A DNA stretch of 39,873 bases, taken from the UHGV virus genome UHGV-0062059, one strand, 5' to 3'. Shown in pieces: positions 3,001 through 6,000 of the stretch. Numbering within the stretch: the first letter of the stretch is position 1; each line of letters begins with the position of its first letter. The DNA is from a virus. Position numbers: made by a program.

Positions 3001-6000
3001 GTGTATCTGTAATTTTAAATAACTCTCCCTGGATAAAATCTTCAGAAGCATAAAAAAGAGGCTGACCCGGTATTCTCTCAAATAAAAAACGAGCATTTTT
3101 AAATCGACTGACATCTGGAAGAGTTGATACTTTAAAAGTAAGCCCTCGCCCATCTATCTTTTCACCACCTGTTGCAACAGAAAGTAATTCTGATAGAGCT
3201 GATGTGTCATCATGAACACCATCACCAATAGCCCCCCAACCTCTTACATCATAACTGTCTCTCCATCTTGCTATCTGAAGTTTTGGGTATTTATTCGCTC
3301 CATCTGGGTCTTCTAATTGCTGCCGTAACTGATCAGGATCATACTTCAGCACATTAGGAAAATAGAACTGCTGCGCACCATACGCATCATAAACAGCCAT
3401 AGAATGGCCTTGCACGGTAACGAATTTGGCAATCTGTCCGTTATATACCGGATATCCAGCAGCGTTAATGATTATTGGTTGCGAAACAGGAATGTGAGAA
3501 CCGTCTTCGTTCTCTACATAAACCTGAATCTGGTTTTCAGGATTTACCGGGTCAGTGTCAATTTTACCGATATAAATTTTGCCATTGGCTACGGCTTTAA
3601 AAGAACGCGCCATAGTGAAGAGTTGCGAAGGCATACTCACTACAACATTGGCTGTAATGTCTGTCATTTAATTTGCTCCAGATACAAGGAATCGCCGCAG
3701 CATTGCCACAGTGATGCATTATTAATCAAACAAAGAGACCACTGTGGTCTTATTGAGGATGCAACCAGCAGATAATAAGATGCCGATCCACTCACAAAAG
3801 CGAGGCATCAAGAATGGGAAGAGATGACCCGCAATTTAATCTGCGGCTACCTTACGAATTAAAGGAAAAACTAAAACAGCGAGCCAAATCCAATGGCCGC
3901 TCTCTTAATTCAGAATTAGTTCAGATAGTGACTGATGCTGTATCAAAGCCATCCAAAATTTCAGGCTATCGAGACGATGCGGAACGCATCGCTGATGAGC
4001 AGTCAGAGCTTGTTAAGAAGATGGTGTTTGATACGCTGAAGGATTTGTACAAAAAACCCACCTGAAGGTGGGTTAATTTTTGCATTTACCTGGGCCATAT
4101 TGACTACTTATAAAATGAGATCAATATTTAATCGCCCAATAACGGGTGTATGTTGAGGTATATCATGGCGAAAAAACCAGGTGAAAACACAGGAAAAAAC
4201 GGCGGAATATACCAAGAAGTTGGCCCCCGCGGCGGTAAGAAAGACAATTTTGCAACCGTCAAGGACAACGAAAGGCTTCCACCAACAACAAAGCCAGGTC
4301 ATGGCTGGGTATTGGATAAGCGAACTCCAGACAGCAAAAAGTAATAATCAAGCCGGGTCACTCCGGCTTTTTGATATGTCGCTCGCAGAACTCAACAAGC
4401 CTGCTCATTAAGTAGCAGTAAGTCTCGTTGGCTCTTCCTGGTTCAACATCAACACCTACCCTTGAGCAGATATCGAATGCCATGTGAGCGCACTCATGGG
4501 CAATAGTAGATAGTTTGCCATTGAACACGCCTATCACATGCAAAACACCATTCTCGCTACTCATTGTATGAGACGCTCCGTTGGCGTCCGAGTCATGCAC
4601 GTCAACGCCAAGTTTTTGATGCAGGCGTTGCCATTCTGGAAAGTCTCTACAAAACACAATTGTACCGCTCTCAAAGAGCGGAACGAGCATCTTTGGTACG
4701 TTTCCAATGTTAACTTTTTTCATGGTATCCTGCGCAAAACTAAGGAGGTTGGTGTGTCTGATTCTATGAGTTACGCTGTGCTAGTTGCCGCAACTCTATT
4801 TCTGGGGATAGGGTTGCAGATTGCGTGGTTCTTTTTTTCTAGTTTTATTAAACGTAAAAGAATTGAATCAAGGATATCTGAGATTTCTATTGCTATAGGG
4901 AAAAATGCTGAAAATCCAGAGAATGAGGCCTGCGCACTGAATTACCTTAAAGAAAAGTTTTCCCCTGAAAAATTTGAAAACAGAATTACTGATGCTCTTG
5001 GATTGGTAATATCAGTAATTCATATGCCACTAAGTTTGCTGATAACAGTGTGGTACTTCGCCATGATCGCCGGAAGAATATTTGGTTTCATGAATATAGA
5101 GCCTGTAGTTCTTTGGGTTCCAATGATACTGCAATTGTTGTTAAGCGTTGCTATCTTTATTTTTTCTGTTTTTATAAAAATTGTCTTCGGAAGATACCCC
5201 GGAGAAGCGAAGGGATTTAATAAAGAATTCATAAAAACTATAAAATAAATGCCGTCCTTGGCTTACAGTGCTACTGCCGGGTAGCTTCGTTAACTAAGAG
5301 CGGGCGCACGGCAGTAGCCGCCTGATTTAGCGCTCTTTCATAAGCTGGCGTTCCAGCTTTAGTGTTTGCCAGACGTAAGAGCGCATTCCTTGCTGCTTTG
5401 GATTCATACAAGCGCATCATTGCACCGAAACCAGCCTCAAGCCCCATTGATACGCCAAGAGTCGTAGTTGCGCCAATCGTCCTTATCCTGTTGGCTTGCG
5501 ATTGCCCCGTCTGAGTTACTACATTTGCGGTGTCTGATCTTGCTGCTTGCTGTAGAACTTCATGAAGAGCATCAAGTTCTTTCATGTGCTTTCCAGAAAA
5601 AATAGTGTTGTAAATTTCACCGCCTGACTGAGATTTCAGCTTATTAACTTCAGTGATGAACTTGGCTGGAGAGTCACCGGCCTTTTCCGCTATTTTGCTG
5701 ACGTAAGCTGCACGCATAGCATCTTTCCCTTTATCATCAAGTGCGCTCCAGATTCGTTTCACGTCAGATGGTTTTCTGCTTAATACAACGGTATTTATAA
5801 GTTCAGGACTGGCTTCACTGCTTGCCTTGTTGAGCTTGTTAGCAATGTTTTTATTAAGCACCTTATTATAAACGTTTGCATAATCGGAATTTGCTTTAAG
5901 GTATTTTGCTGCGTCTGAAGCACCGAGGTTTTTGGCAACTGCGTTACGAAGGTCTTTTGACATTGCATTCTCTACCATATTGGTAGCTGCTTTTGCCTGG

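What the first reader, a model, noticed from the sequence alone, without database searches (positions are those of the whole stretch)
3668..4065. Orphan Mnt repressor with altered recognition residues and a novel palindromic operator next to the tailspike
mnt is present but arc and ant are missing; only 146 bp separate mnt from the tailspike. Mnt's N-terminal beta-strand differs from P22 (GRDDPQFNLRL versus ARDDPHFNFRM as recalled), and the adjacent palindrome AGACCAC-T-GTGGTCT differs from the P22 operator. This suggests a co-evolved specificity pair, and that Mnt may now control transcription into the tailspike.
Basis: partly seen in the sequence, partly recalled or inferred. Interest (0 to 1): 0.55.

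Follow-up and report, generated by a model that had tools for sequence, protein, structure and literature searches.

The report
Mnt-only immunity remnant beside tailspike
This is the already-described "mnt-only" leftover of the phage P22 secondary immunity region, carrying an intact Mnt repressor and its own matched operator of a natural non-P22 type; it is common in E. coli prophages, and nothing in the sequence shows that it drives the tailspike gene.

Summary
The tailspike is at 722-3667 (-), mnt at 3814-4065 (+), and the gap is 146 bp. There is no arc or ant anywhere in the window. A perfect palindrome AGACCAC-T-GTGGTCT lies at 3736-3750.

The protein is a true Mnt, with an Arc-type ribbon-helix-helix domain and the Mnt tetramerisation domain. 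Of the four base-contacting residues as I recall them for P22 Mnt, only one differs (His6 to Gln).

Across about 250 related loci, three Mnt classes each go with their own operator, with no crossovers:
- His6/Asn8 with GGTCCAC-N-GTGGACC
- Gln6/Asn8 with GACCAC-N-GTGGTC
- Gln6/His8 with TACCGA-A-ATGGTA

So a matched specificity pair is well supported.

It is not new to this window. The same DNA-binding half and operator occur in phages L, SE1, ST160, Gally and 720R6, and the arrangement occurs in at least 106 of 5,426 complete E. coli genomes. Complete mnt-arc-ant modules of other phages use the same class. The mnt-only arrangement is published.

The operator keeps the P22 position next to the -35 of the mnt promoter. 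The antirepressor promoter Pant is gone, and no credible promoter faces the tailspike. The gene is under purifying selection (dN/dS 0.09), so it is not a decaying remnant. Its benefit is unknown.

The parts
722..3667 (-). Tailspike gene (981 aa): P22-type head-binding domain, K1 endosialidase domains and a C-terminal S74 chaperone domain
   Evidence: ORF. Pfam Head_binding 222 bits, End_beta_propel 772 bits, End_tail_spike 260 bits, Peptidase_S74 42 bits.
3668..3715 (-). Conserved tailspike 5' leader with Shine-Dalgarno GGAG, shared with P22 gene 9
   Evidence: Sequence. Homologous to P22 L003:1915-1966. Nearly invariant in 36 unique family sequences.
3735..3751 (.). Mnt operator in its 17-bp frame, GAGACCAC-T-GTGGTCTT. 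The perfect palindrome is 3736..3750 and the centre is 3743.
   Evidence: Same frame and same spacing to the -35 as P22 Omnt. Half-sites are nearly invariant, while all four bases occur at the centre.
3753..3781 (+). Predicted mnt promoter Pmnt: -35 TTGAGG (3753-3758), 17-nt spacer, -10 TAAGAT (3776-3781). The predicted start is near 3788, which places the operator centre at about -45.
   Evidence: PWM score 10.5, in the top 0.002% of the window background. P22 Pmnt scores 13.1 with the same PWM. Conserved in all 38 unique Gln6 orphan regions, scores 9.3-10.5.
3802..3805 (+). Shine-Dalgarno GAGG of mnt, 8 nt before the ATG
   Evidence: Sequence. Conserved in the alignment.
3814..4065 (+). mnt: 83-aa ribbon-helix-helix repressor with the Mnt tetramerisation domain, Gln6 specificity class
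   Evidence: PDB 1mnt E=2.8e-34 and 1qey E=3e-12. Pfam Arc 78.8 bits and Repressor_Mnt 66 bits. dN/dS 0.09 against ST160.
4055..4074 (.). Bidirectional intrinsic terminator at the end of mnt, equivalent to P22 t-mnt
   Evidence: Terminator scan, 8-bp stem with 5 GC pairs and T runs on both strands.
4100..4344 (+). Promoter-like site (4100-4128, TTGACT-17-AATATT) and an orf59a-like small gene (4166-4344)
   Evidence: Same position as P22 orf59a. No Pfam or PHROG match.
4350..4369 (.). Second hairpin terminator-like site
4358..4723 (-). hkcC-like gene of unknown function (121 aa)
   Evidence: ORF. phrog_1365 E=1.7e-39. Same position as HK620 hkcC.
4763..5248 (+). SieA-like superinfection exclusion gene. 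This is the last gene of the 'ant moron' before injection gene 16 (5271-7112, - strand).
   Evidence: phrog_7745 E=6e-107. ORFs.

Best explanation
This is the 'mnt-only' form of the P22-family ant moron, the remnant of the immI secondary immunity region between injection gene 16 and the tailspike.

An intact Mnt repressor, maintained by selection, is transcribed from a conserved sigma-70 promoter. As a tetramer it binds one cognate 17-bp operator, (G/A)AGACCAC-N-GTGGTCTT. The operator ends 2 bp before the -35 hexamer of that promoter, with its centre near -45, exactly as in P22.

Protein and operator belong to a natural specificity class (Gln6/Asn8 with GACCAC-N-GTGGTC). This class differs from the P22 class (His6/Asn8 with GGTCCAC-N-GTGGACC).

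Because arc, ant and both hexamers of Pant are gone, the operator no longer overlaps any promoter facing the tailspike. Its only target in cis is the mnt promoter itself, that is, autoregulation. The tailspike is reached, as in P22, by read-through of the late operon.

What is shown: the identity of the parts, the geometry, the class-specific pairing, the loss of Pant and purifying selection.

What is inferred: actual binding, the sign of the autoregulation, and the benefit that keeps the gene.
For: Mnt identity.

P22 reference features and geometry. The same frame is seen in the window and in phages L and ST160.

Pmnt: score 10.5 with the positive controls recovered. It is conserved in 38 unique regions.

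Class pairing without crossovers:
- His6: 85/85 loci
- Gln6/Asn8: 67/67 loci
- Gln6/His8: 78/82 loci
As distinct haplotypes:
- Gln6/Asn8: 40 of 41
- His6: 43 of 50; the other 7 are second genes of a CUS-3-type operon
- Gln6/His8: 59 of 61

Operator constraint: the half-sites are nearly invariant, while the centre base is A, C, G or T (10/13/5/12 haplotypes). Indels occur only on the tailspike side.

Selection on the protein: dN/dS is 0.09 against ST160 at dS 0.51. Against phage L, synonymous sites are saturated, yet residues 1-39 differ at 3 positions.

The pair is a working Pant switch elsewhere. Complete modules were found through their Arc protein: Gln6 mnt, then TTGACA-17-CATCAT, then AAGACCACGGTGGTCT, then arc and ant.

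No arc or ant in the window.
Against: No binding or transcription data exist for this class. Everything about function is inferred from sequence.

Autoregulation alone gives no obvious benefit, yet the gene is clearly under selection, so something is missing from the account.

In a lysogen of the related phage Kapi1, which has a full mnt-arc-ant locus, mnt transcripts were not detected (PMC12922286). Expression in lysogens therefore cannot be taken for granted.

The class pairing rests on three lineages, so the number of independent evolutionary events is small.
Confidence: 0.65

Rival explanations
1. Immunity in trans is the selected function. The prophage keeps Mnt to shut off Pant of incoming or co-resident phages whose antirepressor module carries the same operator class. 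This would protect the resident repressor from antirepressor-driven induction. It is compatible with the best explanation and adds a benefit to it.
For: Complete mnt-arc-ant modules with Gln6 Mnt and the GACCAC-N-GTGGTC operator between the Pant -10 and arc exist in siphovirus-like viral contigs. L147 is a further module with two ant-like genes. From established P22 biology (my own knowledge), prophage Mnt represses ant of superinfecting P22. Specificity diversification is typical of immunity functions.
Against: The complete modules found in E. coli genomes (54 genomes) are all His6/P22-type. The Gln6 modules have no close relative in 5,426 E. coli genomes. Their nearest named phage, Erwinia phage Midgardsormr38, itself encodes a different Mnt-like strand and shows no GACCAC-N-GTGGTC site in its mnt-arc intergenic region. 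No target in the same host has therefore been shown.
Confidence: 0.3
2. Mnt bound at the operator, together with convergent transcription from Pmnt, gates late-operon read-through into the tailspike. It would act as a roadblock that tunes tailspike dosage, or keeps the endosialidase silent in lysogens.
For: The operator lies on the only path from the late operon to the tailspike, 76 bp before its ATG. Orphan mnt is next to a tailspike in all 36 unique family sequences, in front of tailspike bodies of 478-981 aa. Villafane et al. suggested that Mnt and Arc may affect PLate read-through into gene 9 (PMC2629481).
Against: The spacing between operator and tailspike varies by indels (135 to 147 bp), whereas the spacing between operator and Pmnt never varies. 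Late transcription is antiterminated and already crosses two terminators. There are no data.
Confidence: 0.15
3. One reading: a local promoter in the 146-bp gap fires into the tailspike and is now controlled by Mnt.
For: In P22 the operator overlaps the start of Pant, which points toward gene 9. A weak -10-like TATTAT (3777-3772, - strand) lies upstream of the operator.
Against: The best tailspike-directed score is 4.9, about what roughly 950 tested positions give by chance. Real Pant promoters score 15.5 (P22 and E. coli) and 11.3 (siphoviral Gln6 modules). The positions of the P22 -35 and -10 hexamers no longer resemble either hexamer; the -10 position reads TGCATC. No candidate upstream of the tailspike ATG is conserved across the family.
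Confidence: 0.05
4. A decaying, functionless remnant of immI, one of the two possibilities raised for phage L.
For: arc, ant, sar and Pant are lost. HK620 shows that the region can decay to stubs. PMC8022706 raises this possibility for phage L.
Against: dN/dS is 0.09. The reading frame is intact, and the promoter, Shine-Dalgarno and operator are conserved, in dozens of haplotypes and across Escherichia and Salmonella. The arrangement is present in at least 106 complete E. coli genomes.
Confidence: 0.05

Closest known systems
Phage P22 Mnt repressor and its operator Omnt (immI region)
   Same: The protein has the same two-domain build and is 76% identical, with a near-identical tetramerisation domain. 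The operator has the same 17-bp frame and the same 2-bp spacing to the -35 of Pmnt. The region lies in the same place, between gene 16 and gene 9.
   Different: Residue 6 is Gln rather than His. The operator differs at +/-5 and +/-7 (GACCAC against GGTCCAC). There is no arc, ant, sar or Pant, so the operator has no antirepressor promoter to repress.
The mnt-only 'ant moron' of phages L, ST64T and ST104 (Villafane et al. 2008; Zaworski et al. 2021), and of SE1 and ST160
   Same: The arrangement is the same: mnt divergent from the tailspike, without arc or ant. In phage L the first 19 residues of Mnt, which include the whole recognition strand, are identical (residues 1-39 differ at 3 positions), and the operator core GACCAC-N-GTGGTC and the Pmnt region are the same. 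ST64T and ST104 give an identical Mnt match.
   Different: Phage L Mnt has a different C-terminal half. The gap is 135 bp rather than 146 bp. The accessory genes differ (orf62 in L; orf59a-like, hkcC-like and sieA-like here). The host is Salmonella rather than E. coli.
Escherichia phages vB_EcoP-720R6 and Gally
   Same: The mnt-operator-tailspike junction is 99.5% and 98.9% identical, and the gene is annotated Mnt in both records. 720R6 has the same 981-aa tailspike length.
   Different: Essentially nothing at this locus. These are the same element in sequenced phages.
P22 Arc repressor
   Same: The recognition strand PQFNLRLP has the same Gln, Asn and Arg as the Arc strand PQFNLRWP. That these are Arc Gln9, Asn11 and Arg13 and contact bases is from my own knowledge of the Arc-operator structure.
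   Different: Arc lacks the Mnt tetramerisation domain. Its operator (ATAGTAGAGTGCTTCTATCAT) is unrelated in register. The shared AGA triplet sits 2 bp closer to the centre in the arc operator.
Phage CUS-3
   Same: The endosialidase tailspike has the same length, and 66% of the virion and early-gene stretch queried (window 5000-29000) is shared at 96% identity.
   Different: CUS-3 has ant and two tandem mnt genes, no arc, and no operator of either type in the region examined.

Membership tests
Mnt repressor family (Pfam Arc PF03869 plus Repressor_Mnt PF11423) | N-terminal ribbon-helix-helix (Arc-like) DNA-binding domain | tested here: met
   PF03869 78.8 bits against a cut-off of 20.4. PDB 1mnt E=2.8e-34 over residues 3-77.
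Mnt repressor family (Pfam Arc PF03869 plus Repressor_Mnt PF11423) | C-terminal Mnt tetramerisation domain | tested here: met
   PF11423 66 bits against a cut-off of 20.9. PDB 1qey E=3e-12, residues 53-83.
Mnt repressor family (Pfam Arc PF03869 plus Repressor_Mnt PF11423) | A palindromic 17-bp operator with two half-sites next to the -35 of its own promoter | tested here: met
   3735-3751, ending 2 bp before TTGAGG. Same frame as P22 L003:3274-3290 before TTGAGA.
Mnt repressor family (Pfam Arc PF03869 plus Repressor_Mnt PF11423) | Specific binding of the protein to that operator | not testable with these tools
   Only indirect support: class-specific co-occurrence in 247 loci and conservation of the half-sites.
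P22-type Mnt specificity (His6 with GGTCCAC-N-GTGGACC) | His at residue 6 and the P22 operator sequence | tested here: not met
   Residue 6 is Gln. No P22-type site in the window, even with 3 mismatches allowed.
Complete immI region (mnt-arc-ant with sar) | arc and ant genes downstream of the operator | tested here: not met
   tblastn with Arc and seven antirepressor-type queries finds nothing in the window. The gap to the tailspike is 146 bp.
Complete immI region (mnt-arc-ant with sar) | Pant promoter overlapping Pmnt, with the operator at its start site | tested here: not met
   PWM score of 4.9 or less on the - strand, against 15.5 and 11.3 for real Pant promoters.
mnt-only ant moron of P22-like phages (PMC2629481) | Lies between gene 16 and the tailspike. 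Holds mnt plus genes of unknown function, and has no arc or ant. | tested here: met
   Gene order. Same layout in L, ST160 and 720R6. Description.

The most novel reading that the evidence does not exclude
The orphan Mnt-operator pair is not a passive leftover but a selected device. Natural Mnt classes (His6/Asn8, Gln6/Asn8, Gln6/His8 and others) would form mutually orthogonal repressor-operator pairs that define secondary immunity groups among P22-like prophages. In the mnt-only form, the bound tetramer would either gate late read-through into the tailspike or neutralise antirepressor modules of the same class arriving on other phages.
Probability: 0.2. Interest if true: 0.5.

Novelty: new member of a known kind. 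Interest (0 to 1): 0.28.

Why it matters
The practical value is modest.

First, three naturally matched Mnt/operator classes offer a ready-made test of the recognition rules worked out by mutagenesis of P22 Mnt, where residue 6 was already singled out as the specificity determinant.

Second, strong purifying selection on an orphan repressor argues against the published suggestion that the phage L mnt may be a degrading remnant. It turns 'what is an orphan Mnt for?' into a question that a deletion and two reporter fusions could answer.

For genome annotation, the locus is ordinary. It should be labelled Mnt-family repressor with its operator, not a new regulator of the tailspike.

Tried and rejected
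- The palindrome as an intrinsic terminator on the tailspike strand (flagged). Rejected because the T-rich tail is absent in the Salmonella and phage L versions of the same operator.
- The hairpin at 3700-3717. It forms only with G-T pairs on the + strand, upstream of Pmnt, and is not conserved.
- Two scans of species-representative genomes found nothing useful.
- The papers that would give the measured base preference of a Gln6 Mnt were not held in the library: Man, Yang and Stormo 2004; Silbaq et al. 2002; Berggrun and Sauer 2001.
Only the hits with an Mnt-like gene alongside were used.
- Mnt-like proteins of Stx phages and lambdoid phages next to ant or Rha belong to yet another class, with repeated GGCACCAT-like motifs. 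They are not targets of this Mnt.
- The ANT-domain gene at 23723-24445 was considered as a hidden target. No operator lies near it.
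Full report
WHAT IS THERE

The window is a P22-like (Lederbergvirus) prophage of E. coli. It is close to CUS-3, Kapi1 and vB_EcoP-720R6.

- The tailspike ORF runs 722..3667 on the - strand. It combines the P22 head-binding domain with K1 endosialidase domains.
- mnt runs 3814..4065 on the + strand, and 146 bp lie between the two genes.
- The perfect palindrome AGACCAC-T-GTGGTCT is at 3736..3750.
- It is the only such site in the window within two mismatches, against 0.07 expected from shuffles.
- No arc or ant exists anywhere in the window.

Its recollection of the P22 sequences was also right.

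WHAT THE PROTEIN IS

The 83-aa product matches the solved Mnt DNA-binding domain (1mnt, E=2.8e-34) and the Mnt tetramerisation domain (1qey, E=3e-12). It passes both Pfam models, Arc with 78.8 bits and Repressor_Mnt with 66 bits. It is 76% identical to P22 Mnt.

In the recognition strand only one of the base-contacting residues differs, His6 to Gln. Arg2, Asn8 and Arg10 are kept. The assignment of these four residues as the contacts is from my own knowledge of the Sauer-lab work. A paper held in the library confirms only that a single residue change in Mnt shifts the preferred site, mainly at two adjacent operator positions (PMC1184061).

HOW THE REGION COMPARES WITH P22

In the annotated P22 record the operator AGGTCCAC-C-GTGGACCT ends 2 bp before the -35 hexamer TTGAGA of Pmnt. 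Pant (TTGACA-17-TATATT) reads the other way, across the operator into arc, ant and toward gene 9.

The window has its palindrome in exactly the same frame. GAGACCAC-T-GTGGTCTT ends 2 bp before TTGAGG, followed by a 17-nt spacer and then TAAGAT.

A simple position-weight scan gave these scores:

| Promoter | Score |
|---|---|
| P22 Pant | 15.5 |
| P22 Pmnt | 13.1 |
| Window, mnt-directed promoter | 10.5 (top 0.002% of all positions in the window) |
| Window, best tailspike-directed candidate | 4.9 |

About 950 tested positions give a score of 4.9 by chance. The positions that hold TTGACA and TATATT in P22 no longer resemble either hexamer; the -10 position reads TGCATC.

Across 38 unique relatives, Pmnt always scores 9.3-10.5. 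No tailspike-directed candidate upstream of the tailspike ATG is conserved or exceeds 7.3.

The rest of the gap (3668-3715) is the conserved tailspike leader, also present in P22.

IS THE PROTEIN/OPERATOR PAIR MATCHED?

I collected Mnt loci through their proteins, using three queries against viral contigs plus annotated phages. I then read the 17-mer at the operator position in each.

| Class | Recognition strand | Operator | Loci matching, at most 1 mismatch | Distinct DNA haplotypes matching |
|---|---|---|---|---|
| His6/Asn8 | ARDDPHFNFRMP | GGTCCAC.GTGGACC | 85 of 85 with their own upstream region | 43 of 50 |
| Gln6/Asn8 | GRDDPQFNLRLP | (A/C)GACCAC.GTGGTCT | 67 of 67 | 40 of 41 |
| Gln6/His8 (Sf101, IME10, VSe13) | KYDEAQFHLRLP | ATACCGA.ATGGTAC | 78 of 82 | 59 of 61 |

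- There are no crossovers between classes.
- The 7 unmatched His6 haplotypes are CUS-3-type second genes with no operator of their own (12 such loci).
- Within the Gln6/Asn8 class the half-sites are almost invariant, while the centre base is A, C, G or T in 10, 13, 5 and 12 haplotypes. That pattern is what one expects for a dimer-of-dimers site whose centre is not read.
- The number of independent evolutionary events is small, since there are only three lineages. This is strong co-occurrence, not proof.
- It agrees with the experimental history of residue 6.

IT IS NOT NEW TO THIS WINDOW

- Phage L carries an identical recognition strand (residues 1-39 of Mnt differ at 3 positions), the same operator core (TAAGACCACGGTGGTCTTA) and the same Pmnt region, directly next to its tailspike. 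SE1 and ST160 do too. ST64T and ST104 give an identical Mnt match.
- The E. coli phages 720R6 and Gally are 99.5% and 98.9% identical across the junction, and the gene is annotated Mnt in both.
- At least 37 viral contigs encode the identical protein.
- 106 of 5,426 complete E. coli genomes hold at least 80% of 3620-4080. All 12 listed hits are 100% identical.
- The mnt-only arrangement is described for ST64T, ST104 and Para1 in PMC2629481 and for phage L in PMC8022706.
- I found no mention of the variant operator in the papers I could read.

THE SAME CLASS IS A WORKING ANTIREPRESSOR SWITCH ELSEWHERE

Loci found through an Arc protein, and so independently of the operator, show complete modules. 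Their order is a Gln6 mnt (MARDDPQFNLRM...), Pant (TTGACA-17-CATCAT), the operator AAGACCACGGTGGTCT, then arc and ant. They lie in siphovirus-like contigs. The nearest named relative is Erwinia phage Midgardsormr38, although that phage's own Mnt-like protein and intergenic region are of a different type. These Pant promoters score 11.3.

The window's arrangement is therefore best read as a Gln6-class immI that lost arc, ant and Pant. It is not a pair that co-evolved after becoming an orphan.

The complete modules found in E. coli genomes (54 genomes; the three inspected) are all of the His6/P22 type. A same-class antirepressor target in the same host has not been shown.

IS IT ALIVE?

- Against ST160, mnt shows 21 synonymous and 9 non-synonymous differences. 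dS is 0.51, dN is 0.048 and dN/dS is 0.09.
- Against phage L, synonymous sites in the first 50 codons are saturated, yet residues 1-39 differ at only three positions.
- The operator half-sites are identical between the window and ST160 at 14 of 14 positions. At that divergence, neutral sites would be expected to differ at about 5 positions (my inference).
- All indels in the family lie between the operator and the tailspike. None lies between the operator and the mnt ATG.

The gene, its promoter and its operator are thus maintained as one unit, coupled to mnt rather than to the tailspike.

MECHANISM

I commit to the following. Mnt tetramers bind the operator centred about 45 bp upstream of the Pmnt start and autoregulate mnt. 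The tailspike is expressed, as in P22, from the late operon reading through the moron. That path crosses the two terminators at 4350-4369 and 4055-4074 and the antisense of mnt.

The benefit that keeps the gene is unresolved. There are two candidates:
- Repression in trans of same-class antirepressor modules. Such modules exist, but were not found in E. coli.
- Gating of read-through into the tailspike, an idea already raised in PMC2629481.

A local Mnt-controlled promoter into the tailspike is the least likely reading.

VERDICT

This is a correct observation of an ordinary, widespread and previously described arrangement. The one element I could not find in the literature is the natural specificity class of the pair. 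That is expected variation within a repressor family, and it fits the known role of residue 6.

Interest is low to moderate. Novelty: a member of a known kind.

Noticed in passing
window 23723..24445 (-): A 240-aa protein with a phage antirepressor KilAC (ANT) domain (PF03374, 112 bits) and a weak Rha-like N-terminus lies in the nin region. No Mnt-type operator lies near it, so it is not under Mnt control.
   Followed up: partly
window 722..3667 (-): The tailspike is a K1-capsule endosialidase fused to the P22 head-binding domain, with a C-terminal S74 chaperone. It has the same length as CUS-3 siaK1. CUS-3 itself has a different moron, with ant and two mnt genes.
   Followed up: partly
L088 (Sf101), L087 (IME10), L089 (VSe13) and L292-L371: A third orphan Mnt class (strand KYDEAQFHLRLP: Gln6, His8, Tyr in place of Arg2) sits next to tailspikes. 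It has ATACCGA-A-ATGGTAC at the operator position. The centre base is A in 61 of 61 haplotypes, unlike the Gln6/Asn8 class.
   Followed up: partly
L086 (CUS-3) 2980..3509: CUS-3 has two tandem mnt genes. The second has the P22-type His6 strand, but no P22-type operator was found in the 6.5 kb examined. How its ant is controlled is unclear.
   Followed up: no
L384 (YYZ-2008, about 1900-2300) and L385 (PhiR5_1, 1884-2300): Stx-phage and lambdoid Mnt-like proteins (strand DKFNLRFP, with Lys at position 6) lie next to ant or Rha genes. Repeated GGCACCAT / GCCACCAT motifs occur in the intergenic region. In YYZ-2008 the gene is not annotated.
   Followed up: no
L147 4390..4406 and L383: Further complete antirepressor modules have Gln6/Lys8 Mnt-like proteins with ATAGACCACCGTGGTCTAT (L147) or GAACCAC-G-GTGGTTC (L383). 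This hints at more specificity classes.
   Followed up: no
window 4100..4344 (+): The orf59a-like small basic protein (58 aa, no family match) has its own promoter-like site, TTGACT-17-AATATT. It is bracketed by two hairpin terminators, so it looks like an independent prophage-expressed gene.
   Followed up: no
L004 (HK620) 2730..2833: HK620 keeps only the 3' stub of mnt and the ant terminator in front of its tailspike. This shows that the region can decay completely, in contrast with the intact gene here.
   Followed up: partly
L023, L034, L051-L055 and L060, upstream of mnt: In some Gln6-class loci the gene at the tailspike position starts MTDIINRN. Long ORFs with Tat-signal-like N-termini (MNRRLFFKTLAS...) follow. 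This may be a different kind of receptor-binding protein.
   Followed up: no
L003 (P22) 1949..1966 and 2058..2076: P22 has a direct repeat, GCxTGGCTACGGTGAATTTT, flanking about 110 bp between the ant terminator and gene 9. One copy corresponds to the point where the window's sequence departs from P22, so it may be a recombination joint.
   Followed up: no
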